From: Ylistrum balloti
Taxonomy: Eukaryota
Length of the DNA: 64,000 bases
Reading direction: 5' to 3'
NCBI RefSeq assembly: GCF_031769215.1
Contig: NW_026782001.1
Coordinates: 1,426,001-1,490,000, forward strand
Shown: positions 4,107 through 63,786 of the stretch, in pieces
Position numbering within the stretch: the first letter of the stretch is position 1
How the letters are laid out: every line of letters begins with the position of its first letter
The notes under the pieces: generated by a model
The model's database searches: none
Seen by the model: the letters and a program-made list of their open reading frames with translations, nothing else
What the model was told of the DNA's origin: nothing
Translations under genes and position numbers: made by a program

Positions 4107-4244
4107 CAAAATCGTGCCATTGATTGCAGACGAATTGACTACATTTGTCGTAACTGTCTATTATTGTGAGTGAATATATAAATCATGTTGTACTTTCTGG
4201 ACTATGGACTCAGCTTGGCCCAAGGGACAAGCAACAAATTGTAT

Positions 4245-20900: not shown

Positions 20901-21531
20901 GCCTGACAGTGTGTTTTGGGATACATACAACATTTTTAAGTTTACATATACATGTATCTGTACATTAACCTAGTTTTATATGTCCTACAGGATACGCTAA
21001 GAGGGGTCTATCTCACCTCTACCATTTCCGAGTGGCTAGTCGCTGGCTCCATTCTGGCTTATACACTCTCCTTCACATGGGACTTCCGGTCAATCGTCCT
21101 TGAAAGTCCGAAGGTGAAGTTAAATTTCCAACAATTAGAAAATGTAAGTAGAAAAGTTAAATATTTGAAGTTTCATTATTAAATATTACATATTAAGTTG
21201 TGGTTATTTGTTGCGTGCTATGAACTAATGATAACATTTCAAATTATGAGAGTGTGTATTGAGTTTTATTTAAAATCATTAGTTTAGAAGGAAGAATGGC
21301 TGTCAGGGTGTAAGGTAATTTGAACTTGCATTAAAAGAAAGAAATATTCTGACTTATAGAAATAAAAATAAGCGATGCAATACATTTTAAAGATGTCATA
21401 AATATCGATATGTTGATGTTAGTAGACATGGAATTGTTATAATTGCTATATGATTCCCTTATCAGGGTAATAATAATAACAGAGCCTCGGCGGAAATGGA
21501 ATCGAGACAAAGGGGAACAACTCCAGTGTGA
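11907..21531 (+). CDS. DRAM: DRAM/TMEM150 (Frag1/DRAM/Sfk1) family multipass membrane protein, paralog 1, 275 aa, 8 coding exons
   Basis: Exons 11907-11998, 13139-13192, 13398-13465, 15665-15819, 16937-17117, 18893-18951, 20991-21143, 21466-21531. All junctions are GT-AG and phase-compatible (828 nt). Family motifs: YGIAVGYGHTEPDFPYISHTAIEAPERCVFG, LGMSMVANFQ, PHYAGAGLAF, STISEWL. About six hydrophobic segments. The symbol is family-level; orthology was not tested. Confidence 0.92.
14676..14699. repeat. Poly-C tract (24 C) in intron 3 of DRAM paralog 1
   Basis: Homopolymer seen directly. Confidence 0.9.
17118..18892 (+). other. U12-type (minor spliceosome) GT-AG intron of DRAM paralog 1
   Basis: 5' splice site GTATCCTTT (17118-17126) is the U12 consensus. 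Branch point TTTCTTTAAC (18874-18883) lies 9 nt before the end of the CAG acceptor. The flanking exons join in phase 1. Confidence 0.88.
17485..18403. repeat. 65-bp minisatellite, about 13.5 copies, inside the U12 intron
   Basis: Unit TTACGTGTGACGCCCCAGTGTTTCTAGTAGTCTAGTATGGGACGAGAATATTTAAGCAGCTCTAT. CGTGTGAC recurs at 17526, 17591, 17656 and onward. Confidence 0.97.
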
Positions 21532-33600: not shown

Positions 33601-36600
33601 GATTTATAACATTACTCAGGTACAGAGATGCAATCCCTTCCAGAATATTTTTCTCACGACTCCTGTATGTGTGATAAATGATATCATGGCCGGAATCACA
33701 AGATCTTAAAAATCACACTTATTACCTAATCATAAACTTCTATTTTCATATCTTTTTGTAATATCATTATATATTCATTTACATACACATATACTCTGTG
33801 TGTATGTGTTTATTGACGATAAACGTATTTATTTACAGTTGGTTTAAACGATGTTATCAGATATCTATATCTGAAGCATATGCTTTACCTGTCTAACGTG
33901 TCACGCAGTTGGCACAGGTGTAATATCGCTTCATGTGTCATCGGTATCATCTCATCATTTGGACTCAGCATGGTGGCAAATTTCCAGGTAGGATGTTTTA
34001 AGTACCAGCATATACAAGATGTATCCAGGAGGTATATGATTGAGATAAAGAAATATATTTAAACTGATTGATAGCGAGACCATGTAATGTCTTATATCCT
34101 AATTCACTATCTTTTGTTGACTGAAATAAAAGACCGTTTAATAATCCTGATACACATTCAAGCATAAATTTAGATATGTCTTTCGGTTCACAACTTACTA
34201 TGAACTATCTGCAAATTTTTATATAATAAAAAAACTACATCGTTGCCTAATCAGGATATAGCAAAGTCGTACAATGTAACATTTTGTCATATCGGCCTAT
34301 AAATTACAGCAAAGGATAACACCATCCAATCACTAACGTTGTATTACTCTGTTTTGAATTGTTGCACGGGATATCATCGGAATTCTTCCTGTTTCATGAA
34401 TTTGTACCGATATCCTTGTTCCTATTAAATGCTTATAAGGTGACGACCGAGCTTCAACAGAATATGTTTAACGTCCTTCGGATAACTCTAAATACTGGGA
34501 ATCGTATCTCTATCCACTTGTTGTATCCTTCTTTAACAGATGTACCTAATGAGTGTCCTGGGATTAATGAGTTCCCAGGGAGTGTCCTGGGATATTTTTT
34601 GCACACAAGAGTTCATCTATTTAGAATGTTTTAATAATTCTTTAGTTTTAGAAAGTTGACATCCATGGCTAATAACATGCATACAATGATTCTGATTGAC
34701 TGACTTATAAGTATTGCGATGCACCGTTGAAGTTAATGCGTAGCTTATACACTTACACAATACACCATGTAGGAGTGAGTCTCCTGTGATTTTTTTTCGC
34801 ACGCCTGGCAATTCGTTAAGAAATCTCAATTAATGAAATGCTTGGCGTAAAAATGTCCCAGGACACTCACACATTCATCCCAGGACACTCACACATTCAT
34901 CCCAGGACACTCATTAGGTAGGAATTCCGTATCATATATAATGTGTTTAATGAATAAGACTCCTATCCGTGTCGTGATTTTGTTAATCTGTCACATATAT
35001 CGTTTACGTCAATATTTAGTCATTCCCCTCCAGTAATATACTTACGTACTCTTATATAAGTTTATCCACATCCTTAATGATACATTACTCATAATCATTA
35101 TATTGTAGATACATATCGAACAATTGCTTGAGAAATCCGATAAACCATCACAGGTTATCTCCCTTTGATCTTCCAGCGTGTACAGTAATAGGAATACAGA
35201 TGCGTTCAATCTCGTTTACAATAATAGTGTAAATACTGTTGAAATCGAACGAAATGGTTTCCGAAATAATTAATATCATTGTTATGTCAAGAGGGACAAA
35301 AACATTTGGTTGGTTACTACATGATGTAGACAGTTATAAGAAATAAGTAAAAGGATTTTGACATACTATCTATATTGTGCCTGATCACAAAGCTTCAAGA
35401 ACTTTATACTATTCCCATTTTATAACACAACCAACATTCCTAACTATAACACAAAAAGCATGTGCTAAGTCATTACTTTCTTATCTACAATGTGTGTAGT
35501 ACAGTGCTTTGAACATTTTGAGCTTTTCTTATTTCTGTATATTTTTATTGTGATATGGGAAAAGAAATGTTACTTCTAGAGGTTTTATGACCATAAATGC
35601 AGGTGCTGTCAGTGAAGTTTTTGAATAGCAGGCCTTAATTCCGTACTTTATCAGGAGTTTCCGTGTCCGTGTAAATTTTGTTAATATTTTGTCAACTTTT
35701 CAACAATTTTGGTTTTGACTAACTATTTTGTTAACATCTCAGTATTTTCATATAAATTATGATTGTATGATTATATGTCGATAAAAAGGCAGAAATAAGT
35801 CGGCATATATAAATGGTATATAGTTATGAATGTTTGACATAACATGACAAATAATTATCCCAGCCTATAGTATCCTTTTTAGTCCATCATATCTTATACG
35901 GGGTAGATCCGAGCTGTTACTCTCGCGTTTCTTATTAGCTTTCTAAGACGTTTCGATGGCACTGTTAATCTGTTACTTTAGTGGCTGACGCTAGGTGGCG
36001 TGGTTACTACACTCGAAACAAACACGTTAATTAAATTTGTTAATGACGTGCTCCGTTACTAAAAATATAAGGTGTTGTTATTGGGATAGTAAAAATGTTA
36101 ATCTCATCTAATTTAATTTAATAAACTGTTGCAGATATGAGACATTTCTTTAGAACTTCTGGGTAAAGTTTCACGAAAATTCTTAAGTACGTTCTCATGC
36201 TCAAATTTGAGAACAGCCAATCAGAAATGACGTTATATGCTCTAACGTCATTTCTGACTGGTTATTCTCAAATTTGAGCACGAGAACGTACTTAAGATTA
36301 TTCATGAAACCCGACCCTGTAACAGTTCATAAGGATCCGACCTTACAAAATCACAGTGGTTCAGCATTAAGTGTTAAATGTTCTTTGCACTGGTCTGATT
36401 GATTGATATTCTTGTTTTATTTGACAAATGTGGAAAGAAACTGTAATTTGTATTTCGTTTTTTACAGACTGAGCTTCACAAGCCACCCCATTATGTAGGA
36501 GCAGCCCTGGCATTTGCAGGAGGGACAATATATTGCTGGATGCAAACAGTCTTGTCCAGGAAGTTGATGATAAAAAGAGGAGGAAGCCGTTCAGTTTTCA

Positions 36601-37817
36601 TATTTCAGGCAATCGTTAGCCTATTTATGACAATTTCCCTTATCATATGTATCCTTTTTCTACAATTTATTAATAGAGATAACCTTTTGTAGATGCATTC
36701 GTACAATGAAACATTATTCTTTATTACCTTATTTGGTCATGCAGTTTCCTTAATGGTTTGCAGTTGGCGCAACAAAATTATCATACAAACTATTAGAAAC
36801 ATCAGGTGACAGAAAGATAATTACGGTAAGTGGATGTCAATTAAGAAAAACCTTACCCCTGTATGAATGCTACTTTTAAGTGGAAATGAATCTTACCTTT
36901 TCTAGAAAATTGATATTTTCCTTTTGATGCGTCATTGCAGTGGATACATTGCTGTTGAAAGAATCAACAATGGAAGAAGAGCATTTATCGAATGTTTGTT
37001 ATCTGTCATACCAATCTAAGTTATCCAATGTCTTACTATTAAAGTAATATAATATTGAGTTAACTAATGCGAATATATCTTAGAAATAAATGATGGATTC
37101 AATAATAAAGGAACGAAATTCATAAATGTATTAAGGAGAAATGATTGTTTATTTTTATACAAAGTGTTTTTCAGTTAGAACGTAGACTCGATTTTACATA
37201 ATGCGATATTTGTCCATTTCCGTCGTCATTGATGAAACCAAGGTTTATATATAGATATGTATTGTTATATTTCCTTAGCCGTAATCCACTGATAATAATG
37301 TCGCTTCATTAAGATATAGATAATTTTGTATATACTATTTGTTGAAGCTTTCACTGAAAGGAAAGTCTTCTTATTGACTTATTTTTACTGTTTCAGCCGT
37401 CACTGATGGGACTTTATCTGACGTCCACTGTATCAGAATGGCTACTTGCCCTGTCTGTTTCCTGTTTCCTCCTCACCTACATACCTCATTTCAGGAAAAT
37501 ACAATTAAAATCACCTCGGATACATAACAAATTCAGCAATGTCGTCAGCCCTGTAAGTCTATTTTATTTCTGATATGTTTGTGTTTCGTTGCATTAAATT
37601 GATTAATATATCATCAAGAGGATATTAAATACGACGAAAAAAACGAAATAATGTATAATATGACGAATAATAGGGACAAAAAACCTTAAATTCAATTGAA
37701 CAAAATCAAACCTACAGCCGGATTTGACATCATGTGAAAAGTCATGCATCTTTTGCCGACGATGTATTTTTTCTCTTACAGGTAACACCTTGTTTTATTG
37801 GTCCGAATGCTACCTGA
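30687..37817 (+). CDS. DRAM: DRAM/TMEM150 family multipass membrane protein, paralog 2, about 295 aa, 9 coding exons
   Basis: Exons 30687-30742 (tentative start exon), 31406-31528 (alternative acceptor 31415), 32949-33005, 33286-33353, 33839-33987, 36468-36648, 36764-36825, 37397-37552, 37782-37817 (tentative last exon). Motifs: LGHISTNNFPYISHTAIEDPERAIFG, FGLSMVANFQ, PHYVGAALAF, TSTVSEWLL. Exon phases match paralog 1, with identical 68-nt and 181-nt exons. Confidence 0.88.
33140..33250. repeat. Short degenerate AT-rich tandem repeat (ATGTTACTATGATAAAT-like)
   Basis: About 6 diverged copies in the intron between exons 33005 and 33286. Confidence 0.6.
34545..34918. mobile_element. 374-bp MITE with TIRs, subterminal repeats and TA flanks (Tc1/mariner-like)
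   Basis: The left end CCTAATGAGTGTCCTGGGA is the reverse complement of the right end TCCCAGGACACTCATTAGG. TA lies on both sides (34543-44, 34919-20). GAGTGTCCTGGGA is reiterated subterminally. Confidence 0.85.
36161..36317. mobile_element. Palindromic fold-back MITE (about 157 bp)
   Basis: Arms of about 67 bp (TTTCACGAAAATTCTTAAGTACGTTCTC...GAAATGACGTTA and its reverse complement) flank a 7-nt loop TATGCTC, with few mismatches. Confidence 0.88.
36649..36763 (+). other. U12-type GT-AG intron of DRAM paralog 2 (115 nt)
   Basis: Donor GTATCCTTT (36649-36657) and branch point TTTCCTTAAT (36745-36754) 9 nt before the end of CAG. Same position and phase as in paralog 1. Confidence 0.92.
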
Positions 37818-39486: not shown

Positions 39487-40496
39487 TCAGAGTATAGATG
39501 ACACAGTTATGGAACCAAACATATTCCATAACACTTGAAGAAAAGACGCATGTGCATCTATTGATTCTGGTGAATCTGTTGTTGTATTGTTATTGTCATT
39601 GTTGTCAAATATGAACCCGCTTAACACGGAGCTACGGGTACTGGTGTCTACATTTTCTGTTTCATCTCTCATGGAGATAGCTCGGGCAGTAGCTTCAAAA
39701 CCTTTACCAGAATCCCGAGCATTACTTTTAAAAGTTAGAATAGCAAGAGTTCCCTCAGAAATCAAGGTTTTGTTCATCAGGGAGGAACCACAATGTCTGA
39801 AATATAAACATAGTAACCACTTAGATGTTTATGTTGAATAAGCGATTATCACATTAATCATTAATCGGAACATTAATGACAGTTGCCGTATTTATACCTG
39901 TCTTATAATTATACATGTAGTACCTGCAATGAAAATTGTTTTATACAACAGATATTTATATATGTATGATATATCAAACATTTACTATTTATTGATAATT
40001 TCTATCAAATATCAAGCTTTATATGTGAAAGACAAAACTAATGCACTTTCAACATTTATACTTACATTTGACCTCGCTCAGTTATATTGCTTGTCAAGTG
40101 AACCTCTAAGTAATCGTTTCCACAATTGGTTGATTCTAAAATATCAAACTCGTCTATAACGATCTCAAGCTTCATCCCACTGTTCGCCTGGAATGAAGAA
40201 TACAAAAACATGTATCTGATTCAATCATGAAAACTTCAAATCTTTTTTTTCAAAAAGCAAATAATCAAAACTATTCTAATGACTTTAGTTCTAACATATA
40301 AGATATATTTAATCAATCCGTTAGGTTATGCTTGGTAATAGATTCTTGATGTCAGTTTTATTTATCATTATTCGACATGTACCTACCTGCAGAACATACT
40401 GACATGTCGTGGAAGAAGGGTAGCCATCAGGAAACCCGGGAGATTTTATAGATACAGAGGCTGAAGTCAATCGATAACGTCCTCCACAATCTGCAT
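39487..40496 (-). CDS. CUB domain, N/T/S-rich linker and hydrophobic C-terminus (part of the astacin gene)
   Basis: DCGGRY..KSPGFPDGYPSSTTCQYVLQ / ..FDILESTNCGNDYLEV / HCG...LTFKSNARDSGKGFEATA, then DNNDNNNTTTDS and ASFLQVLWNMFGSITVSSIL*. Confidence 0.88.
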
Positions 40497-43400
40497 CTAA
40501 GATAGTATATATATCATCCACATTAATACAGTTACATATGTAGGAACTATCAATCTAATATACCAATTAATCAAGAACCACATATCTGAAGCGATACTCT
40601 TACACCATGAACCATGTATCATGCCTACTTATTATCCTGTTATAATGTAATCAGAATCTGTAATCCAAACCGTACAGAGTCCGATTGCAGACAATGTACA
40701 CATGGTTTATATATAAACTTACATCTACATCTAAATGCGTGTTTGTACCAGGTGTGAAGTTGATAAAGGTCCATTTGTCGTAATATTTCATTTTATCTTA
40801 TTGTGCAGGTGACGTTAATGTTCCGATTTATAACTGATATTTCCCCTTGTCTTAAGTGTTAGGAAAGTATATCTCACATCAATCAATATTTGATACCCTT
40901 GTCAAGAGAACGTCAATTTACTATATTCAAGAAAAAATAGGTTCATATACTAGTTTTATGACATTTCCCTTACCGAATGTTTTCATACAGATTACACCGT
41001 TGTCCGATTTCATATCACAGCTTCCTACGATCAGGGATTGGCCATTAGTGGTAGCGCATCCATCTGCGTCACTGGTGCCCATCTCGTGAAGTGGCCTTCA
41101 CAGATTTAGCAAATTAAACAGATCATCAAAAGTATTTGGTAAAATTAAATATAAATTGAGAAACAAAATACGTTAATACCATCACGATCCACTATGTTTA
41201 CGACGCAGTGTTTGCTTTTGGTTTTGTGGTAACCGTGAGGCATGATTAATATTTACATTACTATTATTATTGTTATGGATAAGGTCCAACGACGGACAAT
41301 AATACCTTAAAATTCTTGTGAAATAGTTATAAGACAAATTCGACCCATAAAAAGGTCAGCATACTACCTTGGTGCAACACTCACATGAGGCTTGCATCAA
41401 ATAAGGAGCCATCAGGAAGGAGGTAGGCTGTATCACCAGTCTTACGTTTAACTCCTGCCCAGAAACTTGTAACTGACGACATCAGAAAATTCTCTTCTAT
41501 TCTAGTAGTGAGCCATTTCTGATGAAGATGGGATAAGCAACAAATCTTTAGTGTTTAGTCCATATCACACAACAGCCTGTGTTTGCTATAAGTGTAATCA
41601 TCGCAGCGGTTTCTTTTCTTTAAATACAAGTTAAATGTTGTAGAAAACATAACAGTACTATGTAACTATTGTAAAGTATGTTCAGTTGACATTAAAATAC
41701 AGGAAACTTACACCAGAGTGCCACAGTATCGTAATTATGTTTGCTAACTATAAAAACAGTTATGTTTTTGTGATATAGCAGGAATACGATATTGAAATGA
41801 CCATATGGTTCCAGATATTAGAAAATGTATTTATAAACACAACTATTCAGTCCAAAATTGAAAAAACGTATTCTTCGTTATAATGTTCTATTTAGTAGTT
41901 CAAGAATGAAATGAGAAATAATTCTGCTTAAATATGGTAAACCGAATATACTTCTTACAACATAGAGTTACGATCACACAGCTTTAGATCATACAATAAG
42001 TATACGGTAGAGTAAACCTTACCACTTCTTCAGAACTTTTAAACGATACTACGTTTCCACCATGGTTGGCACATAGATCTGTAGCTATGTCATAATCTAC
42101 AGATACGGACGGGAAAAACTGATAGCAGTTACCATTAGCGTAGTCCCAAGATGTTCCACAATCCCATTTCACGACTTCAAATAAAATTAGATCCGATCAG
42201 AGTAAAAGGAAGTGATAATAAGTATGGTATATACCAACCAAATAAAGAACAGTAATTTTTAAAAGTTTACATTACATTTAAAATGACAATTTGTAGATTG
42301 TTTTCAATTCTTTAAAATGTATCGGGACTTGACTAGGTCGATCGTCGGCAAACAGGTAGTAGCTAAAGTAATACAGTGTCTTTTGCTAGAGTTAGGAGCG
42401 TCTCGGGTTCGAACCCGGTCTAGCTATGCATTTTTCCGCTCCTGTTACAAAGTGTCATGGAAAATAATGGAAGAGTTGATCACGTCGTAAATTACTACCA
42501 TAAAAAGATACTCTTATACACCAGAAATGTTATCAAAAATAAATTAAAACCATATAACACTGAAGAAGTCAAATACCGCCCATGACATGAATCAGGGATA
42601 ACATGTTAATCAGTAAAGAAGAAGGGAATCGCTATCACGAGCTCCCATTTAAGTTACAAAGAAACCAAACAGAAAAGCGTCTCTTTCACACATGTGACAC
42701 TCAGAAAACCAGAAAGATAATGTAGGTTATAACGTAATGTCTAATTCAAGACAAGACAGTGTAATGCTGTGATTTTGTCACAAATCATTTAGTATTTGTG
42801 ATATGGATTTATATGTACTGACTGTGTTGATATCCCGGTACAGGTGTCTGACAGAATTCTCCCATGAAGCCGTCCGGACATAAACAAAAACACTTCCTGT
42901 CTGATGTGGCGCCAACTACTCCACCGTTTTCACAGCTTAGATTTTGAGACTCACACCTTTCTGGAAAAAACAAAAGGAACTAAGACTATGAATCATATAA
43001 ATTATCAAAAATAAAGAAAACGACTAGAATAATTTGATGATAATGAAAACAATACGAGCCATTAAAACTGCAAAGAATATAATAATATAGTTGATGTAAA
43101 CCACTCGATGAACACTGAACATATCATGTAAACATTTTTCTTGTCCTGGGCTTCATTGTGTGCAAAAAAGTACGATAAATGATGTGAAAGAATAAAAAAT
43201 ATTAGATAACATCCAGGACAATTTGATGACATTCTGTTTACGACTTATAGATCAATTGTTTTCAATTGTGGAGTGTTGTAGTTTTTCAAACAATAGAGTA
43301 TGTGCCTGTCTATCTATAAGGACATTTACGCCTAAACATCACAACTATGATGACCTACCTGTACATTTGTAAGCACGATTTACAAAGACGGCGTCATAGT

Positions 43401-46400
43401 AGCTGATCGTCTTGGCCTTACCTATAGGAATACACGCTTTAGTTCATGTTTCTATGACAAGGTCAACTGTAACAATATCCCCTGCGTAACGTACAAGGAT
43501 TACGTAAACACAGATGGAACAATATCATATCTTATATTGTATATCTTACAGAATCTTGTTATGAAAAATCTCCATTCATCTATCTTATAACAAACAGATA
43601 TCTATTCCAGGGCTAATTATTTTCACTTTCACTATTCGATCAGTCCGCATCAAGAATATCAAAACACAAGCACAAATTCATAAACAAATTTAATAAAATT
43701 CATTGTTTTATAGAACTTCCTAGATATCTAACTCGTCTTATCAAAAGTGTTTCTCTTTTTAATTCAGGGCAGTATATAAATTCATGTTATATAAATATTT
43801 TCTCAACTGAATACTGAAATTACTTGACTGGTGTAGACCTTAGGTAGTTTAAACGCCCCCTCTTACCTATGACAGACTGGTAGGCTGGGTCTGTTGTCAG
43901 CATGGCGGGCTTCCCATTAACAGACCAGTACTGCAAATAGCAATACCTCCATATCTACAAGTTCTTAGTAAACTGACGTAATGAGAGCTATTTTAACATA
44001 CTATAAGTCTATGAAGATATAAATATCAACATGTGCTTGTTTTTGTTTTCTTTATTAGATACGAAAACAAGGAAACATATATATATATATTACCTTAGGG
44101 AATGACTTTCTCTCGATCATCATACCCAGTAAATAAGTCTTAATGCATTTGCTTTTCAATTAACCTATATTAATCTGTAATACAGAGTGTGTAAGTATGT
44201 GAAGATATATACTTGTATGGAAAATATAAACAATATTTTGTAGTATTATAGATAAATGAGGTCCATGTTTCATTTCGTTAACAGCATAACATACAAGTTC
44301 AGAAATATTATACAGAGGTGTCTTAATCCACCAAAAACTTAAGTGTAGGAGTTACCTATGACGAGACTCATTAACCAATGTGAACTCACTTTTGGTCCAT
44401 AGTGCATAATACTTTTATAATCATAAGGCGTGCCATGATAGGGGTATGTTCGGCCCTTCATGGCGACCGTGTCGTAGTTCCAACGGGAGTCAGGATTGAT
44501 ATTCTCGTACTGGACTGTGATATACGTGTCTCTGTCATTCCGTTCCATTGTATGTAACATCCCTATAGCATGACCCAGCTCGTGAATAATCATGTCCATC
44601 TGTAGTATAGCACAGTAAGTACACAGATTCGGCTTAAATGGTTATTTGTGATACGTTCCTTCTACGATCAATATGATCCTAATGGAATCAACAAGATGCA
44701 CTTATGGAAAATACATAATGTAGTCCGTGGTACGATTTTATCGAGTGTTGTTTTTGTTGTTTTTAAACTGTTAATTAGGAAATTGAAAAGTTAAAAAATT
44801 GGGCAATTATCTTTATAATAAGCATAACACTCACTATCGTGTAGTGTATCATACAAGTTGACTACTTACACCCATGCAGTTGGCTCCTATAGAGATGGGC
44901 TGAGGCTGAAGAGGGAACATACCATATCGGGAAAAACATCTAAAAGATAAACAAGATAAGTAGGTGTATTGTAATACTTCATTAGAGGGTGTCTCTCTAT
45001 CAATTCCAATTGTACACCTGATCAGAAACGTTCGAACTCACGTTATGCCGTTGATAAACGTTAGGTAACGGGTTGCTCCCAACTGTTGTTGCATGTCACT
45101 AGTCCACGGTACAAATTTGATACATGTCTGTTGTTCCCAGCGAGCCATGCCAACTCGTATGCTGTTCCGCTGGTCATCAGCTACATTACATAAATGTGTT
45201 ATAAATTAGATAAAAACGATAATGACATATTGGTAATAAAATTAAATCTCGACAAAAAATAGACATTTTATTTATTTGATACAATAATTCAATGAAATCA
45301 TTAAGTTTGTTTCTCTGTGTCCCTCCTTATCTAATCTCCTTTCTTCCAGTAGGCAATCGTATGTCCTGTTTTTAACATTTATGATTCTTCGATAGTGGAC
45401 ACCAACATCTGTTTTAATCAACATTATTAGGAGAAAATAGTCGCCCGATAGATCATATTACTAAACAATGATTATCAGGTTATTGCACCTGTGTAACTGC
45501 AACTATTAGAATTAAGAAAATAAATAAATCTTACTATAAGTTGATGGAAAGGTATAAGGAATGACTCCGTCTGGCCAATATGACACGCCATCAGGACTGG
45601 CAACATCTTGTCGTCGGAATCTGGTTCTGGCATTCACCTGGTGCGAGTGGCATATGGTAGAAAAATGGTTTGAATGACAATGAAACCTACTGGGGAAAAT
45701 GACGAAAAGTATGCAGAAGGAATTACGTATACTGTAAACACATCTGGATATAGCAAGAATTTGATAGGAATCAATCCGCCTTTCCATTGGGAATAGACGC
45801 GCACAACGGCCAAGTCATGTTGGGTAAAAATGTCACAATTTGCTAAAGTCATTTTCGACATATAGTTCTCGAGTCATTGTAGGCGGATGCACCTATATAT
45901 TGTTTAGAGACAACTTCCTATATCATGAGACCAGAAAATGGTGGGGAAAGCCATCAGGATAATTGGTTTGAAGTTTACTCAACACCCCTCGAAAAGTTTT
46001 AAAATGTCACCCACGAATGGCGATATCGCTGTTCACATCACATGGAAGTTATACTCTCATTTTCTTGGGGGATAGTACACTGTTATTCTGAGAAAAAGTT
46101 ACAACCCGCCATAGGATTGTGTTATGGCTTCAAGTTGAGAAGTCATATCAAGACACACTTCATAGGTCATTTATGATGGTAAGATAGAGTCAATTCACCA
46201 AAACAGTTTACAGTAGTTTATGAATGGAAAATGGGCGAGAGAAAAACAAAATCACATCTTTGTGATGAAGACTTTAACCCTAGGGATAACATAATATTTG
46301 TTTTGCTTTCTACGTAACTCCATGCTATATACATGTTTATAGAAGTTTTGTAATAATACTATTTCCATTAGACAGAAGTAAAGTTTATGCAAAACGATTT

Positions 46401-51240: not shown

Positions 51241-52242
51241 GATATCAGTGGTTAGGTCAATACAGGGCCAGTTATTTGTAGTGAAAGGGACACAGGTTTT
51301 AATATATGTGGTTAGGTAGATACAGAGTCAGTTTTCTGTAGTAAAAGGGACACAGGTTGTTGATATTTGTAGTTAGGTTGATACAGGGCCAGTTATCTGT
51401 AGTGAAAGGGACACAGGTTGTTGATATTTGTAGTTAGGTTGATACAGGACCAGTTATCTGTAGTGAAAGGGACACATGTTTTGATATCCATGGTTAGGTA
51501 GATACAGGGCCAGTTATCTGTAGTGAAAGGGACACAGGTTATGATATCTGTGGCTAGGTACATACAGGGCCAGTTATCTGTAGTGAAAGGGAAACAGGTT
51601 ATGATATCTGTGGCTAGGTACATACAGGGCCAGTTATCTGTAGTGAAAGGGACACAGGTTATGATATCTGTGGCTAGGTACATACAGGGCCAGTTATCTG
51701 TAGTGAAAGGGAAACAGGTTTTGATATCTGTGGCTAGGTACATACAGGGCCAGTTATCTGTAGTGAAAGGGACACAGGTTATGATATCTGTGGCTAGGTA
51801 CATACAGGGTCAGTTATCTGTAGTGAAAGGGACACAGGTTATGATATCTGTGGCTAGGTACATACAGGGCCAGTTATCTGTAGTGAAAGGGACACAGGTT
51901 ATGATATCTGTGGCTAGGTACATACAGGGCCAGTTATCTGTAGTGAAAGCGACACAGGTTATGATATCTGTGGCTAGGTACATACAGGGCCAGTTATCTG
52001 TAGTGAAAGGGACACAGGTTATATCTGTGGCTAGGTACATACAGGGCCAGTTATCTGTAGTGAAAGCGACACAGGTTTTGATATCTGTGGCTAGGTACAT
52101 ACAGGGCCAGTTATCTGTAGTGAAAGCGACACAGGTTATGATATCTGTGGCTAGGTACATACAGGGCCAGTTATCTGTAGTGAAAGGGACACAGGTTATG
52201 ATATCTGTGGCTAGGTACATACAGGGCCAGTTATCTGTAGTG
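51241..52242. repeat. 60-bp minisatellite, about 16.7 copies (dimer of diverged 30-mers)
   Basis: Unit ATGATATCTGTGGCTAGGTACATACAGGGCCAGTTATCTGTAGTGAAAGGGACACAGGTT. Both halves contain TATCTGTRG. It produces the repetitive ORFs in the track. Confidence 0.97.
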
Positions 52243-53450
52243 ATAGTAAAACAGACTCTGTAGTATGAGGCAAGAATATTGTAAGCATTATTATCTTTGG
52301 GGAAGTAATAATTTCCCTTTCATCTGTGGTGAGGGTGATTCTGGCCCTGTTACACAAATGAGTAATATTGGGGATGTTAACTGTGTCAAGCGTGATGCAG
52401 GACATGTTTTCTGTGGTAAGAGTGATTCTGGTTCTGTTTTCTGTGGTAAGATTGACTCTGGTATGGCTTTCTGTGGTAAGAGTACTCTAGTTCTGTTTTC
52501 TGTGGTAAGAGTGACTCTGTGTCTGTTTTCTGTGCTAAAAGTGACTCTGTGTCTGTATTCTGTGATAAGAGTAATATTTGGCCTGTTGGGGCTGACATCA
52601 GTGGTGAGTGGTTCTGTGCTTGTTATCTGTGGTGAGAATAACATTGTTGCTGACATCAGTGGTGAATGGTTCAGAGCCTATTATCTGTGGTGAAAGCACC
52701 ATTGGGGCTGACATCAGTGTTGAGTGGTACAGAGCTGTTATCTTTGGCGAGAGTAACATAGGGGCTGATCTCAGTGGTGAGTCGTATAGAGCCTGTTATC
52801 TGTTGTGGAAGCACCAATGTGGCTGCCATCAGTGGTGAGTAGTATAGAACTTGTTATCTGTGATGAGAGTAACATTATGGCTGTCATCAGTGGTGAGTGG
52901 TATAGATGCTGTTATCTGTGGTGATTGTAACATCGGGGCTGACATCAATAGTAAGTGGTTCAGGGCATGTTATCTGTGATGAGAGTAACATTTGGGCTAT
53001 CATCAGTGGTGAGCGGTATAGAGCCAGTTATCTGTGATGAGAATACCATTGGGACTGACATCAATGGTGAGTGGTACAGGGCATGTTATCCTGTTATCCA
53101 TGGTGCGAGTGATACATATTGTTATCAGTGGTGAGTAAAATGCAATGTTTGTTTCAAATGAGAGATGGCTGCAAAAGTTGTTGTCAGTGAGAAAAGGGAT
53201 ACACAGACTGTTGTCGGTGGTCAGGAGGTACCGACTGCTATCAATGGTCAGAGAGATACAGGCTGGTTCCAGTGGTCAGTGGAATATAGACTGTTGTCTT
53301 AGGTCATGGGAATACAGGTTCATCGTTGAAAAGAAAATTGGTGGTGGTGGAGGTAGAGACTATTATCAATGGGCAGCGGGATATGGAATGTCATCTTTAA
53401 TCAAATCGATACAGGATATTATCAGTATAGCCAGGTGAGAGAAGGGATGT
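52243..53450. repeat. Related degenerate minisatellite blocks (30-bp then 58-bp period)
   Basis: TTCTGTGGTAAGAGTGACTCTG units at about 52400-52570. GCTGACATCAGTGGTGAG recurs at 52591, 52649, 52707, 52764, 52822, 52880, 52938, 52996 (about 58-bp period) and decays towards 53450. Confidence 0.85.
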
Positions 53451-56327: not shown

Positions 56328-59300
56328 ATGGCTGATGATGATATAGTTAAGCAGGCAGCAATGAGGAGAGAAAGGAACAAATCCAAAAACCGGATCGGCG
56401 ATGACTTGTTTACAGATAGTCCAAGGACTCCCATGTCAACTCCAAGACAGGTATGTGTGTTATGTAGAAGATTACACTACCGGTAGTGGCAGAGTGTGTA
56501 TCATGTTGAAACATTTCTAGTTCTATTTTTACTATACTGTTATGCGGAATCTAGGACAAAGTCGATATATTCCATGAGATACATTTACTTATCAGTCCAA
56601 ACAAATCAAACATGCCAACCTCTTCCAATCAACTGAGTACAAACAAGTCGTGTGTTTGAAGTCGATCCGCATATATCAAGATACTTTTGCTCCATTAAAA
56701 CATAATTGTAATGCTCGGCTGACATGGGGAAACCATGATATCTAAATTAGTACAAAGATAAATATGATTGTAGAAATAACAGAATATCCAAGACCTCTGT
56801 AAGAAGTATTTTCAGGGTAAGCTTTCTGTCGAGGGTGTAGAAAAACATTATTAACATTTGCACATCAAAAAATGGCAAAAAGCAGTAAATATTCCCTTTT
56901 ATCACGTTAAAGCCAAATTATGATGACATTGGAGACTGCATTGTATAACTAAGTGAACTATCTCGTGAATAGTCTGTTTATATATATTTTTTTACACGTA
57001 GCCTAAATACCTGTTCTCTATATGAGAGAAAATATCGTTCATAAACACCGAATGTCACCTAGCTGTAATTCCTAACCTAGGGTTCTTTATACCACATATC
57101 GATTAATGGAAGGAAAAGCAAGTGAACTCGATGTCTAAACAGCCGAGATGTTCCAGGTAGAAATCAATTAATCACTTGATGAATTATTGATTACAAAGAG
57201 ACAGATATCTGTTTAATTATATCTTTTACGTTAGAGCTACCTTCGTTGCATTTTACTCTGTATCTTTATTTGTAATTGATGTACGAAAATGTACAATTTT
57301 TTTACATTTTGAAGTAGACTCCAATTAACATCCTGTCATTTTGATGGTTGACCTGCATATGCCCTGTAGGTCTCATTAGATTTGAAGACCTGTTTCTGTT
57401 AAAGCTAAATTTCTAAAAAGGCGATGGCAAGATAGAGCAACTGCTTTTATCCAGAGGTTTGTGTTGGTAAATGATGTTTTCCATTTATCCTCTGATACAG
57501 TCGAACCTCGTGATCTCGAACTCGGTCAGACCATTGGAAAACTTCGATGTAACTGAGTTTTGTATTCAAGTGAAGTAAAAGTAAGGCAGGAAACGACAGA
57601 ATGCTTCGAATTAAATGGGGTTTTCGAGGTATTCAAGTTCGAGATAAAGAGGTTCGACTATTTTCTATAATTGATCGTGTATTCAATCTTGTACACCGCA
57701 GTCGATATCCAACAGGATTTAACGACATCCTCGGTCTTCTTTGATGTGGATAAAAATATCGGGTTTGGTATTGATTTATTTCCGCAGTTAAAATTGATTT
57801 GTCAATAGCTTTGATATTATTATAAACGCAATGTTTAATCAGAAAGATCAACAGCCAACATATCGACCTGACGAAGTATTAGCAAAGAAGTACGATTCAT
57901 CAGCTGTTTTTTTACAATGCCATACAAAATGTCTATATATTTTTTTAACCTATGACAAATTATAATTTCAGTTATAGCATTCTTCTCGTCTATTTTTCAT
58001 TGGGTGATATGGATGTTGTTTGTGTTTCTCCGGATCTTGCGTTTGTTTTTCGGGTTTGACCATGTGAGCTTGTTTGCACTTATGTAGAAAAGAAGTGCGT
58101 AAAGCATTCATAGCAAAACTGTTTATGGCATCTAATCAAAAGGTAATAACCCCTTTGCAATAAACAGTTAAAGAAATAAACATTATTGTGTTTGGCGATT
58201 GCAGCTATGGCTTTGTCATCAAGAGGTTAGGTGTTTGTACAGTGAAAATGAATAGATGGCTGTGACAAAAAGATGTCAATAAGTTTTTTTTTTTTTTATC
58301 GGGAACATTTGAATAGTTGTAATTTCATAACAATACACACATACACTGGACACACTGGACGTGAAGCAGCCTAGCAACTGCCTTGCAAATTTGAATGGCA
58401 AGAAAGTGTTTTATAGGACGGTCCATAACATCAGCCTCATCCAAGGCTACAACGTCTTCAAACGGAAAATGATAAAGTCATGACAATTTAGATGGTTGAT
58501 AATGTAATACCTGACAATACTTAAATAAAAATATCGACGGAAAGGAATTTTCATTTACTTACACTGTTAACAGGGCTTGACATAATCGATATTTGAAATG
58601 CCATAATTAATTATGGATATTTTCATGTTCATGCTAACTTTCTTGAGTTACAGCAGAACCGTTCAGATATTTTAGCTTTGGAAGGCAAATGCTCTCTTTT
58701 ACCTGTGCATGATACAAATGTATATTTATTGCATGGGTAATTGTTTGGTGGAGGAAATCATTTAGTAGTGACAAAGACCAGATTAATTTTTTACTGTTTT
58801 TTGTTATTTTTGTTGTTTTGTTTTTGTTTTACTGAATATTGTAGACAATAGATAAGAAAATGAATGTTAAGGACGTGATAAATGACTGTGATTTAAAGCA
58901 AAGTTATGTTCCTGGATACCATTTTATTCTCCGAAATACCATATAATTTCTTGTCCTGGTAGATGAGATTATGACTTACATGAACATAATATTCAGCTCT
59001 GTATCTCAAATATCCATACACAGCTGTTCCTTGTTTTAATGTTTTTTCTATCATGTTGTTTTAGGAACATACAGGACGAAGATCACATTTAGGGACAGAT
59101 ATTGCGGTAACTGATATTACCGACCATGAACAAACAAAAGTTGACCGGGATCTACTCATCCCAAGGCGTATGAATACTCATCGACGTAGTCATGGTAACA
59201 TTGAGAAGACGATAAAGCGACCTGTTGGAGACACGCCTTGTCTGCCCTTTATAGAATGCAAGGTATTAACAAATTATGTATTACTTATATATGTAAATAT

Positions 59301-62300
59301 ATGATAATTAGTATGTTTCTATGTTGAAATAATGCTTGGTCCCAGTTTAAGCACATTAGCTTGTCCCTCGGATGGACTGATTCACTCATTGAAACATCTC
59401 CGAGGTGTTGACAAGATGTTCTTTCATCTGAAATAGACACGTGATTTTGTCTCACCTTTCTTTGATGTGGCTTTGGTACATTAACGGCTGGAAACATTCA
59501 CAGTATTTGCAGTGAACTGTGTAGACATTTTTGTTTTGATCTTATTTTCCTTATTCCCCGCTTAATCCAGATTTTTATTCATTTTAACAGATATTTTCTT
59601 TCAATCTAACTCATTTTGTAAAATAGGTTATGATATAAATTGATTTTTTTTCTCCCTTCCTTTGTGTTTTTCATTTTTATATGAATGAAACATAATGAAG
59701 GTAATGCACTTAGTTATGTGTACATATTATACGTTTTCCAACTTATTATCAAAATATATATAGAAAATCCCCGGGATTCATAAAAACAGTATTGTATCTT
59801 AAACAGTTGATTAATATAACCTATTCATTATAGATAAACATGCAAAAGATGCACTATGATAGGGTGAAATGGCGTTTTGAGAAATGCGACTGCAATGATA
59901 AGAAGCCTAGTTACGTTTTCCTTTTTCCAACAATTCGTTGCATTTTACTACACCAGGGTGATCGGAAGTCTTGATCGACAAGTGAATTGCACGCCATAGA
60001 CTCTAAATATGGCCATAACTCAAATAATTATTTATGAGAAGTCTATATATAGACCTCACACCTGTATACAATATATTGGTACTGATGCAAAACAAGTGTA
60101 AACAATACAGGTTGCTGTGATGTTTTTTATGTAATCTATTCACCAATGATGCACGTGTATGGATATAGAACTTAGTCACGTTTATTAAACACGCAAGGTT
60201 TACTGCAATGAAGTATAAATGAGTTTTCTATGTATATTATATTTCCAATGAATAAATCCATAGTTCAGACGATTACCAGTGTATGACATATCTGTGTGTG
60301 TATCGTTATAAGTTACACTGCTTTATTCAGTAAGTAACTAGTTATATACATATTTATATTTATTTTTACAACCAATGCAAAAAAGTATAAAGTAATCACA
60401 CTTGCAAGCTATGCAAGGGGTTTTACTATGGTAGGAAACCAGCGTCTCCAGGATAGACCCACGTGTTCGGGCAGGTGGTCCTATGGTATCTTCACGTCTG
60501 AAAGAGGAATAGAACCCGGGTTATAGTTATGAAAGATAACTTGTACATCGTAACGGCGATGGCCCTGATATCAGCAACAAAAAAGCATTTAACGTTTCAA
60601 TCTGTTGACTTTACATTGTAAAGCCATAGCGGTTGTCCCAATAAAGATCCCATGACAATGTGTGGAAGTAATATCATAATCCTATGGTAAAACGCCTCTA
60701 TTCGTCCTATTTCTATTACCGAGCTTAAAATCTTAAAATAATTGTTTGGAAGAAAATTTCTAAGGTTCCCCGCCATTGATCAATTTTTGGAGCCCTTACC
60801 GACTTTCTAATTTCTAATTAACTTTTGGCGTCTACTTAGTTTTTCCTAGTCCCATAGTCTTGTGTTGCCTGTAAGTTGTGTGTTTGTAATGAGATTTCGA
60901 ACATTTACTTACTTGCACAATTATTAAAAAGATCATAAATACGTATTTATAATTTTAAGGCTAATGTTTTCCAGTATCCAAAAAGCAAATCACATCATTT
61001 CATAGTTACGACCATCATGGTGTCAGGTTCCAACCATAATGTAATACTCGGATGTAACATATGTAGTCTTCTGTATAGCACGAAGACGGTTCCTTCTGTG
61101 TATAAAAATTGATCTCAACACAACATTAATGAAAATTGCCAGAATAAATGTTTCTGTATCTTAATCTATGTGCATCCACTTAACAATGTGTTGAACACTA
61201 ACTACGAATTACAGTCATTACTGAAAACATTAATTTTGTTTAATGGGTTATATCGGGTGTTTAAAGTTAGACGTCAGAGTAATAATGGTTTGTTAGCTAC
61301 GGATGTGTCACAAATGCTTTTATTGTACAATTGTTTATCATATAACCAGTTCATTAGTTTGATACCACAGGGCACACTTCTGAATATTGACCGAAAGTGA
61401 AATAACAGGGTTTTTTTTTACCCGGTCAATGATTGTGAAATGCTACTTGGTTTTACCGGAGGCAACACCTTGGCATGATTGTGTCCTTATGTGTAATGTT
61501 TGTTTTAAATATACATTTTATTTTACAGTTAAATGGTAAGAGTGTGAAGGCATTAATAAACACGTGTGTGATGTCTTCAATTATAAACAGACACCTGTAC
61601 CAACACATGTAAGTTTTAATAAGATGTCTTATCATGTCGTAATAAATCAAGACTGACTTTGAAAAAAGCTGTATAGTAAAGAAATGGCTAAAAAATGTGA
61701 TACATGAACATTAATATTTGGTGGCGAACGTCTATACACCAGAGTGCAACTAAGTAATTGTCTCGAGAAAAAGACCATGCTTTTCTGGGTCGAAGTAATT
61801 CTTCCACGTAACAATTTAAAGTGCTTGAATTTGATATTGTACTATTAAGCCTTCTTAATAAGTCGTTATAGTCTTTCGTCGAGTTTGGTGGTAAGATCTT
61901 CCAACAGATTATTGGCATACCAATGGGAATTAACCTTGCCTACCTTTGGCTGACATTTTTTGTTTTCATACAAGGTTGAATTTATCTGAGAGCTATTCAA
62001 AACAAGTCACAAAGACCTTTCAAAGTCGTCTTTTTTCACATTCAGATATACTGATTACATCTTGTCTTTAAATAACGATAAAATCATTAACCACGTCAAT
62101 TCTTTATGCCACCAGAACTGGATATCAGAGACAAGACAGACTTCTCCATTAGCTGCTTATCTCGGTTTGTTACTACAACGAAACCAATATGGACAGCTTT
62201 CCACCAAGCTGTATGATAAGCGTGATGATTTCAACTTCCCTATTTTCAATGTTCCATTTCTGGATAGCAACATTCCTGCAAGCTCCTACCTATGGTGTTT

Positions 62301-63786
62301 ATATGTTTTCCGTTATCACGATTTTTAGTGCAAGAAGTCGACAACTGACGGACGAACCCGTAATGCAGGAAACCAAAAGATGCAAGTCGATAAAAATTAG
62401 AAGTTTTACGGTCGTCTTAGTAATCTCAAAATATTCTATTTCCTTGTACGATAGGAAACTTGGCGTGTTCGATGATCGTTAGTTTGCCATTGGTTCCGTT
62501 GTTGAATACCTTGTTCTCATTTGAGAACGTGAAATTGCGTAGTTGGATTGAGCAAGATTTACATGGCGGATGTCCGGCCGCAACACATCAACTCTCGATG
62601 AATCAGAATCACCGCTTATCTACTAATTATCCAGCTTTGTCGATCAGCCTACAACAACTGCCTTGTTTCAATGTTCAGCTTAATTAACCACTACTTATGT
62701 ACTTTTCCTGGTGGTTGATTTCGTAGAATTCATTGCGAAAAAATATCCGTAAATGAGACAAAAACGATTCGAGTTATCTCATCGCTTTGTTGCATTGACG
62801 CATTGAATGGGATGCCATTTCGATGAAAAATGGCAAAAATCAACCATCACAACTCGTTAATCATATTCCTTCATTTTGTGACTATCCAACCATTGTTTTC
62901 GGTTTACAACTGAATTTTATATTTTAAAACACAATATCTCAATATTCTGTCTCAATGTATTTATAATCATAGAAGTAAATTGTTTTGACAGTTTCGGCTC
63001 AGATGAGAATATGGGATTTATGGGCGACATGGCTATCGGTGTTCCAATTATGGTAGAGACGAGGACGTTACAATTTGATTTCCACACTAGAGGTAGTTCT
63101 TTCGTCAATTATATTTACATTTAGAATACAATCTGAAGGCTCTGACTATCAATTCGAGATTTTGTTTTTGTATTTGTCATGGTCGATCACCTGAATTGCA
63201 CCCATATAAAAACTACAATTTCAGTGATCCCTACAAGGGTCGGTGTACATGCATATCTTTATGCCTGTTTCTATAAACAATTCTGTCTATTACCTATCGA
63301 CGTTTGGACCAATGCGTCTAGACTTAGTCCCTTTCACCATTTTTTAATTATTCGCTGGTCTTCTTAATTGATTGACTCCATTATTTTCAACGATATGAAG
63401 TGTCCTGTCATTCGACCTGTTTTTTATCTAATAGTTGACTTGAAACCTCGAAATAAACAGTGTTCTAAGTGAGTTTAAGATAAATGATAAATGAAAAGAA
63501 TATATACACTTATCTTCCACTGAAATATCTTTTTTATTTCTCAACATCCTTTCAAAAGCATTATTATTGATTTAAAATAATGCTGTACTGTTGCTTAACT
63601 TTCATTTTCAAATCTAAGAAATACGAAAAGAAAACGTACAAAGTCATCAAATTATTACGATCCTAAATGAAAGTTTATTGACTAAACAGGTGCATGAATA
63701 TCAGCTGTCTACAACCAGATATGTATGTATTTCCAGGTGATATTCCGGATGTGGTATTAGGACTAGATTTCCTCATGTCGTTTAAG
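56328..63786 (+). CDS. DDI1/NRIP-type retroviral-like aspartyl protease-fold protein with a degenerate active site, 3' incomplete
   Basis: Exons 56328-56450, 59065-59262, 61529-61608, 62992-63092, 63737-63786, all GT-AG and in phase. The protein reads ...PCLPFIECK|LNGKSVKALINTCVMSSII...GDMAIGVPIMVETRTLQFDFHTRGDIPDVVLGLDFLMSFK. This aligns with DDI-family LYINCKVNGHPxKAFVDSGAQ...MLLGLDML. There is no stop within the window. Confidence 0.8.
57498..57660. mobile_element. Tc1/mariner (pogo/Tigger-like) MITE, 163 bp
   Basis: TA followed by CAGTCGAACCTCGTGATCTCGAAC at the left end and GTTCGAGATAAAGAGGTTCGACTA at the right end form imperfect TIRs. It lies in intron 1 of the retropepsin-like gene. 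Confidence 0.85.
61690..62600 (+). mobile_element. Decayed Penelope-like retroelement reverse transcriptase fragment
   Basis: Frameshifted RT motifs: FVEFGGKIFQQIIGIPMG (GIPMG at 61914-61928), FRYTDY for FRYIDD (62041-62058), STKLYDKRDDFNFP..PFLDSNIP..PTYGVY (about 62200-62300) and SFYGR-like sequence at about 62400. It lies inside an intron of the retropepsin-like gene. Confidence 0.88.

What the first reader, a model, noticed from the sequence alone, without database searches (positions are those of the whole stretch)
56328..63786. Spliced host gene encoding a catalytically dead DDI1-like retropepsin (DSG to NTC)
The exons reconstruct a retroviral-type aspartic protease fold (LPFIECK|LNGKSVKALI...VVLGLDFL). 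The invariant D-[S/T]-G is N-T-C (codons 61559-61567), and the flap region looks shortened relative to DDI's Gly-rich flap. The frame, splice sites and hydrophobic core are intact across five exons, arguing for a maintained pseudoprotease rather than a pseudogene. Retropepsins are obligate dimers, so it might act as a scaffold or as a dominant-negative partner of active DDI1 (a ubiquitin-chain-dependent protease that activates Nrf1/SKN-1A in animals). The new Cys could alternatively give redox sensitivity or different chemistry. This is the most novel-looking gene in the window.
Basis: partly seen in the sequence, partly recalled or inferred. Interest (0 to 1): 0.7.

Follow-up and report, generated by a model that had tools for sequence, protein, structure and literature searches.

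The report
Protease-dead NRIP3 relative in molluscs, worms
This intact six-exon scallop gene encodes a protein predicted to have the fold of a retrovirus-type protease but lacking its cutting residues; it is likely the counterpart of vertebrate NRIP2/NRIP3, and because relatives in clams, snails, worms and a brachiopod also lack the normal cutting motif yet keep the protein, it likely works as a non-cutting, paired adaptor.

Summary
Observation confirmed: five GT-AG exons give an open frame with N-T-C in place of D-S/T-G; a sixth exon 0.7 kb past the window completes a 229-aa protein, identical to an 'uncharacterized' Ylistrum balloti model. The predicted fold matches the DDI1 protease domain, about 13 flap residues are missing, and a homodimer is predicted. 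The interpretation needs correcting. The gene is likely not a DDI1 copy but the ortholog of NRIP2/NRIP3 (NIX-1 subfamily): it shares their N-terminal helix, C-terminal tail and lack of UBL/HDD/UBA, and the genome has a separate DSG-bearing Ddi1. The domain tree favours this without proving it (94/88, falling to 51/47; AU p 0.08-0.11). None of 19 mollusc, annelid, nemertean, brachiopod and unnamed orthologs keeps D-[ST]-G (Gly lost in 19, Asp in 16); amphioxus NRIP3 keeps DTG. Cys occurs in only 9 of 19, so new chemistry is unlikely. Best reading: an old, constrained, non-catalytic dimeric adaptor; its partner, activity and any heterodimer with Ddi1 are untested. Nine literature searches found no description. 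The scan earlier noted an analogous dead Ddi1 paralog in a yeast (other DNA, not checked). New variant of a known kind; interest 0.42.

The parts
56328..63786 (+). NRIP2/3-like pseudoprotease gene, exons 1-5 of 6. Exon 6 (residues 185-229: last dimer strands and conserved tail) lies outside the window at G000:C144:1490671-1490808
56328..56450 (+). Exon 1 (residues 1-41), with the start codon
   Evidence: 20/20, 20/20 and 18/20 identical over residues 1-20 in three other scallop rows
56337..56378 (+). Conserved basic N-terminal helix, residues 4-17, shared with NRIP3-named proteins
   Evidence: helix 4-17 in the model; family profile scores four amphioxus NRIP3 rows above 200 of 200 shuffles
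59065..59262 (+). Exon 2 (residues 42-107): variable, low-confidence linker plus first strand of the protease-like domain; skipped in frame in one Mizuhopecten isoform model (P0005)
61529..61608 (+). Exon 3 (residues 108-134) with the degenerate active-site loop
61559..61567 (+). N118-T119-C120 in place of D-[S/T]-G; Thr kept and predicted at the dimer axis
62992..63092 (+). Exon 4 (residues 134-168): flap region shortened by about 12-13 residues against DDI1, then core strands
63737..63786 (+). Exon 5 (residues 168-184): P-D-x-x-x-G-x-D-F motif and helix; D172 and G176 invariant in 19 of 19 family rows

Best explanation
The gene encodes an intact retropepsin-like protein that lacks the catalytic Asp and Gly and part of the flap; it is likely the single lophotrochozoan ortholog of NRIP2/NRIP3 and likely acts as a non-cutting adaptor in which the domain is predicted to pair with a second copy and the conserved N-terminal helix and C-terminal tail would bind partner proteins. 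Shown: exons, frame, N-T-C, flap deletion, conservation pattern, separate intact Ddi1. Predicted: fold and homodimer. Inferred: no proteolysis (D-to-N is the inactivating change used in yeast Ddi1), orthology, adaptor role. The likeliest named partner is Ddi1 in an associating, supportive role, by analogy with human NRIP3 (about 0.3; untested).
For: Triad: 0 of 19 family rows has D-[ST]-G; position 1 is N in 14, D in 3, S in 2; position 2 is T/S in 18; position 3 is never G; on the tree Gly loss needs 1 change, Asp 3. Ddi1 D220N is called a catalytically inactive mutant in PMC11012796 (passage). Constraint: against three scallop rows the domain is 104-109/118 identical, the tail 13-14/14, the linker 54-66/77; against a Mytilus row 56/118, 9/14 and 9/77. 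Fold: AF2 pLDDT about 80-94 over residues 101-220; Foldseek best human DDI1 3s8i, E 8e-11, rmsd 2.3; VIA Z 16.2, rmsd 1.7 over 110 residues to Toxoplasma Ddi1, next row Z 10.0. Homodimer: score 0.76, best of 3 controls 0.00, runs agree in at least 70% of contacts, pLDDT at least 79; T119-T119 and strand 184-191 at the axis; mark reached by 21 of 30 solved pairs and 0 of 23 single chains (microbes), 17 of 29 and 0 of 30 in eukaryotes. Predicted interface positions are more conserved than the rest (0.59 v 0.44). NRIP identity: the profile search of 1.84 billion proteins returns, among 40 hits, amphioxus and horseshoe-crab proteins named NRIP3; Atlas best cluster for the whole protein is NRIP3, 0.95, 177 of 256 features; N-helix pattern in 16/19 family, 4/4 NRIP3, 0/9 DDI rows, tail pattern in 17/19, 3/4, 0/9, RPRT in 6/19, 3/4, 0/9; domain tree puts 19 family + 4 NRIP3 rows on one side at 94/88 in roughly species order. 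Host Ddi1 with DSG is on another contig and shares only 1 of the 4 domain introns. Seven full-length family proteins come from Logan contigs of 1.0-1.6 kb, too short for an 8.5-kb gene, so they are likely spliced transcripts. Human NRIP2/3 lack the HDD and cannot replace DDI2 (PMC9120136 section 13); NRIP3 co-immunoprecipitates with DDI1 (PMC7445249).
Against: No activity or binding was measured. The domain tree is not decisive: support falls to 51/47 with the 5 long rows removed, and a family+DDI1 grouping is not rejected (AU p 0.084 and 0.112). Pairwise profile scores to amphioxus NRIP3 and to a DDI1 are close (73 v 68) and domain identity is 29 v 26 of 118. No vertebrate NRIP sequence was in hand; the bridge is automatically named amphioxus and horseshoe-crab proteins. 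The Atlas call skipped clusters with PF08284, PF00077 or PF12384, which may have removed DDI1 clusters. The motif patterns were written after seeing the alignment and several DDI rows are partial. The dimer pass may be memory of solved Ddi1 dimers and the AF2 alignment held DDI1-like rows. The tail is not among the confident interface residues and its last residues have pLDDT under 50. Three orthologs keep the Asp (DTS, DSS, DST).
Confidence: 0.68

Rival explanations
1. Dominant-negative regulator: it forms heterodimers with Ddi1, giving a one-Asp active site that lowers Ddi1 cleavage of ubiquitinated substrates such as Nrf1.
For: Host has an intact Ddi1; 15 of 26 predicted interface positions are similar and 7 identical to host Ddi1; human NRIP3 binds DDI1 (PMC7445249).
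Against: In that paper NRIP3 raises DDI1 and speeds RTF2 removal, the opposite sign. Family-specific interface residues differ from Ddi1 (P102 in 16 of 19 v Leu; Phe at 189 in 14 of 19 v Leu). Conserved terminal motifs outside the domain are not needed for poisoning.
Confidence: 0.12
2. Nuclear-receptor cofactor like murine NIX1/NRIP2, repressing a receptor by binding its ligand-binding domain.
For: NIX1 binds the RORbeta ligand-binding domain (PMC5282884 discussion passage); the protein has basic stretches that could be nuclear signals (sequence, inference). Compatible with the adaptor reading but with another partner.
Against: No LxxLL in the scallop protein; 1 of 19 family rows and 0 of 4 NRIP3-named rows have one. 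That NIX1 uses LxxLL is recalled; the original paper was not held.
Confidence: 0.12
3. An independent, old DDI1 duplicate that lost UBL/HDD/UBA and catalysis, resembling NRIP only by convergence or long-branch effects.
For: AU tests do not reject family+DDI1 (p 0.084, 0.112); best solved relatives are DDI1/2, though no NRIP chain appeared in those searches to compete; last intron shared with host Ddi1.
Against: N-helix, RPRT linker motif and tail shared with NRIP3-named rows and absent from 9 of 9 DDI rows; 3 of 4 domain introns differ from host Ddi1; a one-residue amphioxus isoform difference falls 8-9 residues before the motif Gly, where intron 4 lies here (8) (inferred from proteins only).
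Confidence: 0.1
4. The Cys gives new catalytic chemistry or a redox switch across the dimer axis.
For: NTC invariant in 8 of 8 pteriomorph-type rows; C120 is predicted to touch C120 and N118 of the other copy.
Against: Cys in only 9 of 19 orthologs; the position also takes S, T, A, L, V, the pattern of a relaxed site; no conserved His among family positions conserved at 80% or more; flap deleted.
Confidence: 0.05
5. Decaying pseudogene or assembly error.
For: None found beyond the broken triad.
Against: Six clean exons; orthologs in four phyla; domain conserved above linker; 2 exonic differences in a second haplotype are both synonymous (weak, P 0.11).
Confidence: 0.01

Closest known systems
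NRIP2/NRIP3 (NIX-1 subfamily of single-domain non-viral clan AA peptidases; PMC2642776 passages)
   Same: About 200-270 aa, C-terminal DDI-related domain, no UBL/HDD/UBA; shared N-terminal helix, RPRT linker motif and tail with NRIP3-named amphioxus proteins; best Atlas cluster.
   Different: Amphioxus NRIP3 keeps DTG and a full-length flap region (75 residues v 58 here); the scallop protein has NTC, a shorter N-terminal region and an S-hydrophobic C-terminus (18 of 19 family rows, 0 of 4 NRIP3 rows). That vertebrate NRIP2/3 keep DTG is recalled, not tested.
Ddi1 / DDI1 / DDI2 retroviral-like protease domain (Pfam PF09668)
   Same: Fold (3s8i E 8e-11; 7d66 Z 16.2), predicted dimer geometry with Thr and C-terminal strands at the axis, one intron position, E-L-P end of the domain.
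   Different: No catalytic Asp or Gly, flap shortened by 13 residues, no UBL, HDD or UBA/UIM; Pfam score 15.7 v cut-off 26; the genome has its own intact Ddi1.
Gag-pol proteases of LTR retroelements
   Same: Same clan AA fold; many copies in this genome match the family profile; nearest Atlas clusters for the domain alone.
   Different: This gene has five introns, no long polyprotein frame, one locus found, and orthologs in roughly species order.
Dead Ddi1 paralog in a yeast (scan note e1-7785609, unchecked)
   Same: A retained retropepsin lacking the catalytic residue beside an intact DDI1.
   Different: Described there as a nearby Ddi1 copy in yeasts; a separate event on other DNA.

Membership tests
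Clan AA retropepsin fold | Single-domain retroviral-protease fold | tested here: met
   Model pLDDT about 80-94 over 101-220; Foldseek E 8e-11 to DDI1; VIA Z 16.2, rmsd 1.7, 110 aligned
Clan AA retropepsin fold | Homodimer with the Thr/Ser of the triad at the axis | tested here: inconclusive
   Predicted, 0.76 v best control 0.00, T119-T119 contact; may be memory of solved Ddi1 dimers; not measured
Active retropepsin | D-[S/T]-G triad | tested here: not met
   N-T-C; 0 of 19 family rows have it
Active retropepsin | Full-length flap | tested here: not met
   58 v 71 residues; no flap hairpin between helix 128-135 and strand 147-155 in the model
Active retropepsin | Proteolytic activity | not testable with these tools
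   needs an assay
Ddi1/DDI1/DDI2 | UBL and HDD before, UBA/UIM after the domain | tested here: not met
   97-residue N-terminal part is one helix plus low-confidence linker; 14-residue tail; no such Pfam hit at E up to 1
Ddi1/DDI1/DDI2 | Falls inside the DDI1 clade | tested here: not met
   9 DDI rows form their own starred branch (96/82; 96/90) without the family; a sister position is not rejected
NRIP2/NRIP3 (NIX-1) | About 250 aa, DDI-related domain at the C-terminus, no ubiquitin-related domains | tested here: met
   229 aa; definition from PMC2642776 and PMC5282884 passages
NRIP2/NRIP3 (NIX-1) | Shared motifs outside the domain with NRIP3-named proteins | tested here: met
   N-helix profile above 200 of 200 shuffles for 4 amphioxus rows, 199 of 200 for the horseshoe crab; best of 22 other proteins -0.1 bits; patterns. 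Bridge proteins are automatically named; no vertebrate sequence in hand
NRIP2/NRIP3 (NIX-1) | One clade with NRIP3 on the domain tree | tested here: inconclusive
   94/88 with 41 rows, 51/47 with 36 rows; AU p 0.084 and 0.112 for the alternative
NRIP2/NRIP3 (NIX-1) | Shared intron positions or synteny with chordate NRIP genes | tested here: inconclusive
   Only a protein-level hint from two amphioxus isoforms at intron 4; no chordate DNA available
NRIP2/NRIP3 (NIX-1) | Binds nuclear receptors or DDI1 | not testable with these tools
   No LxxLL in the protein; no heterodimer job was run
LTR retroelement protease | Intronless part of a gag-pol frame | tested here: not met
   Five introns; longest stop-to-stop frame within 56328-63786 is 112 aa

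The most novel reading that the evidence does not exclude
The ancestral bilaterian NRIP gene lost its protease motif once at the base of Lophotrochozoa (Gly first, then Asp and the flap in several lines) and has been kept since as a dimeric pseudoprotease whose new S-hydrophobic C-terminus and basic N-helix recruit a partner, plausibly tuning Ddi1; this would show that the conserved job of the whole NRIP2/3 family is non-catalytic and give a natural separation-of-function allele for human NRIP3.
Probability: 0.35. Interest if true: 0.62.

Novelty: new variant of a known kind. Interest (0 to 1): 0.42.

Why it matters
NRIP2 and NRIP3 are listed as aspartic proteases (PMC2714152, passages) but the papers read here show binding roles and failure to replace DDI2, not cleavage. 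An ortholog group that has lacked the triad across molluscs, annelids, nemerteans and brachiopods (lineages that split over 500 million years ago; date recalled) while keeping the dimer surface and two terminal motifs points to what the family is kept for and makes a direct test possible: catalytic-site versus terminal-motif mutants of human NRIP3, and rescue by the mollusc protein. It also gives a family name to proteins labelled uncharacterized or hypothetical in NCBI for about 20 invertebrate species. Pseudoenzymes are common, and no mechanism is shown, so the surprise is moderate.

Tried and rejected
Pfam on 4 single exons gave no protease hit at E up to 1; whole proteins gave only sub-threshold aspartyl-protease hits. 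Atlas on the domain alone returned retroelement-type clusters with low shared-feature counts (157 or fewer of 256), not used for identity. RNA search: no RNA holder listed for this species; no evidence either way. Metagenome scan for ortholog DNA: 322 pattern matches, none confirmed, so dN/dS between species could not be computed; the one-haplotype polymorphism test is weak (0 non-synonymous seen, 2.2 expected, P 0.11). Own-genome search with amphioxus NRIP3 gave 9 weak matches in long or unspliced frames and missed this locus, so it cannot exclude a second NRIP gene; the family profile hit 5 exons of this locus among 72 matches, the rest mostly domain-length unspliced matches typical of retroelements; a few short matches (C228, C312, C1144, C140, C950) were not examined. 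Neighbours (Frag1/DRAM-type, astacin-CUB, Mab-21, 150 frames chosen by GC content from 955) were not tested for synteny. No heterodimer job: the single job went to the homodimer. Second structure job not used. Literature: 9 searches found no description of an invertebrate or catalytically dead NRIP; one search was too loose to be informative; the library lacks most subscription journals; Greiner 2000 and Puente 2004 were not held and Krylov and Koonin 2001 was seen only as a reference; the supplement of PMC2642776 gave only the count of 5 NIX-1 sequences, not their species. Scan notes: none by sequence, one analogous yeast case by words.
Full report
Observation. A sixth exon at C144:1490671-1490808 adds 45 residues and the stop. 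The 229-aa product is held in NCBI as uncharacterized LOC132545424 of Ylistrum balloti. A second haplotype in a DNA run shows no listed difference at the triad (40 of 42 differences shown) and two exonic differences, both synonymous.

Fold. Pfam gives only sub-threshold aspartyl-protease hits (15.7 bits v cut-off 26). PDB sequence searches give human DDI1 and DDI2 first (E 8e-5 for the single protein, 2e-5 for a 7-row profile). The AlphaFold2 model, made with a 32-row alignment that included DDI1-like rows, has a helix at 4-17, a low-confidence linker and a confident domain at about 101-220. Foldseek ranks DDI1/Ddi1 domains first (3s8i, E 8e-11, rmsd 2.3) and VIA-align gives Toxoplasma Ddi1 Z 16.2, rmsd 1.7 over 110 residues, with XMRV protease next at Z 10.0. 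From the catalytic position to the motif Gly there are 58 residues against 71 in 9 of 9 DDI rows and 73-75 in 4 NRIP3-named rows; the family ranges from 51 to 70. A two-copy prediction of residues 92-229 scored 0.76 against 0.00 for the best of 3 controls (runs agree in at least 70% of contacts, pLDDT at least 79), with T119-T119, C120-C120 and strand 184-191 at the axis; the mark was reached by 21 of 30 solved pairs and 0 of 23 single chains in microbes, 17 of 29 and 0 of 30 in eukaryotes, and the pass may be memory of solved Ddi1 dimers.

Relatives. Word-seeded searches found scallop, mussel and unnamed Logan proteins. The profile search of 1.84 billion representatives gave 40 hits at E up to 0.001; look-ups of 27 proteins named Pecten, Mizuhopecten, Argopecten, Mytilus species, Pinctada, Solemya, Mercenaria, Mya, Haliotis, Gigantopelta, Owenia, Lamellibrachia, Tubulanus, Lineus and Lingula proteins as uncharacterized or hypothetical, and Branchiostoma and Tachypleus proteins as NRIP3 or NRIP3-like. 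Seven full-length family proteins come from Logan contigs of 1,036-1,585 bases, which cannot hold an 8.5-kb six-exon gene and are likely spliced transcripts (inference). For the tree I used 41 of the 63 proteins then in hand, leaving out fragments, near-duplicates and four multi-domain proteins.

Which family. The genome has a separate Ddi1 with DSG on contig C177; its domain introns lie after DS-G (phase 1), HL-G (phase 1) and RHQ (phase 0), of which only the last matches this gene. The domain tree puts the 19 family rows and 4 NRIP3-named rows on one side (94/88), roughly in species order, and 9 DDI rows on their own branch (96/82). This is not decisive: without the five long rows support is 51/47, and holding the family with DDI1 is not rejected (AU p 0.084, 0.112); pairwise profile scores are close (73 v 68). 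The stronger evidence lies outside the domain. A profile of the first 26 residues of 18 family rows scores four amphioxus NRIP3 rows above 200 of 200 shuffles each and the horseshoe-crab row above 199, while the best of 22 other proteins scores -0.1 bits. Patterns written after seeing the alignment find the N-helix in 16/19 family, 4/4 NRIP3 and 0/9 DDI rows, the tail in 17/19, 3/4 and 0/9, and RPRT in 6/19, 3/4 and 0/9 (several DDI rows are partial). The Atlas ranks an NRIP3 cluster first for the whole protein (0.95, 177 of 256 features; clusters with three retroviral-protease families were skipped) and NRIP3/NRIP2 clusters first for the amphioxus protein without any filter. Two amphioxus isoforms differ by one Glu 8-9 residues before the motif Gly, where intron 4 lies here (a hint from proteins only). 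I put orthology with NRIP2/3 at about 0.85. No vertebrate NRIP sequence was available.

Loss of the triad. In 19 family rows the triad reads NTC (8), NTS (2), NPS, NTA, NTL, NTV, STS, STC, DTS, DSS, DST: none is D-[ST]-G; the Gly is gone in 19, the Asp in 16, the Thr/Ser kept in 18. Amphioxus has DTG and the horseshoe crab NTG. On the tree the Gly needs one change and the Asp three. D-to-N is the substitution of the inactive yeast mutant Ddi1 D220N (PMC11012796, passage). Cys is in 9 of 19 rows, so it looks like a relaxed position fixed in one bivalve group rather than a new nucleophile. The rest of the protein is constrained: among scallops the domain and both termini are 88-100% identical and the linker 70-86%; against Mytilus 47%, 50-64% and 12%. 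Best-conserved positions are P102, F103, C106, A115, T119, S124, P171, D172, G176, D178, F179, C185, and predicted interface positions are more conserved than the rest (0.59 v 0.44). The chain ends in Ser plus a hydrophobic residue in 18 of 19 family rows and in none of the 4 NRIP3-named rows.

Mechanism. Most likely the domain serves as a dimerisation core without catalysis, displaying two basic N-terminal helices on flexible linkers and two conserved tails as binding elements (confidence 0.68; fold and dimer predicted, the rest inferred). By analogy the likeliest named partner is Ddi1: human NRIP3 co-immunoprecipitates with DDI1, raises its level and speeds RTF2 removal (PMC7445249, abstract and passages), and NRIP2/3 cannot replace DDI2 for NRF1 cleavage (PMC9120136, section 13). 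A nuclear-receptor role as for NIX1/NRIP2 (PMC5282884, passage) is possible, but the protein has no LxxLL.

Comparison and novelty. It works like a pseudoprotease scaffold; it is not an active retropepsin, not a Ddi1 and not a retroelement protease by the features tested, and is probably a member of the NIX-1/NRIP subfamily defined in PMC2642776 (passages). Nine searches of the held library found no description of an invertebrate or triad-less NRIP; subscription journals and curated protease databases were not searchable, so prior listing as a non-peptidase homologue is not excluded. Papers were seen as passages (PMC7445249, PMC5282884, PMC2642776, PMC11012796, PMC2714152), one section (PMC9120136) or listings only. 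The scan holds one analogous, unchecked note on a dead Ddi1 paralog in a yeast and none on this sequence.

Verdict. A real, old, constrained gene; a new catalytically dead variant of a known small family, with the partner unknown. Interest 0.42; 0.62 if the non-catalytic role of the whole NRIP family and a link to Ddi1 were shown.

Noticed in passing
window 61875-62600 (intron 3): High-copy repeat: summed contig depth up to 11,000 against about 8 beside it; a 112-aa frame at 61990-62325 holds a KLYDKRDDF motif, recalled as typical of a non-LTR retroelement remnant; no Pfam hit.
   Followed up: partly
L002:2987-5026, minus strand (G000:C144:1492487-1494526): Single 680-residue open frame with Mab-21 and Mab-21_C domains, tail to tail about 1.7 kb after the stop codon; likely one of the bivalve cGAS-like receptors (recalled family expansion).
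   Followed up: partly
window 15607-21179 and 33823-36689, plus strand: Two sets of exons matching Frag1/DRAM/Sfk1 (PF10277), likely two tandem genes.
   Followed up: no
window 40324-45205, minus strand: Exons matching Astacin and CUB: a tolloid/astacin-type metalloprotease gene, divergent from the gene studied.
   Followed up: no
window 51241-53090: G-rich tandem arrays (periods 60, 30 and 58) that explain the GC skew and the long open frames at 51393-52693; further arrays at 4238-4734 and 17525-18375.
   Followed up: partly
G000:C177:~102100-103900, minus strand (L009): Canonical Ddi1 with DSG; three introns in the protease domain.
   Followed up: yes
P0026, P0032, P0033, P0044 (unnamed ENA proteins): Proteins with two to four tandem Ddi1-like protease domains, some with degenerate triads: single-chain multi-domain retropepsins of unknown origin.
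   Followed up: no
P0005 (Mizuhopecten isoform X2): Model that skips exon 2 in frame, removing the linker and the first strand of the domain; if real it would alter the dimer interface.
   Followed up: no
L004:7966-9614 (G000:C144:~1517500-1519100): Overlapping open frames of 500+ residues in a repetitive stretch without Pfam hit, next to a tandem array; probably repeat-derived.
   Followed up: no
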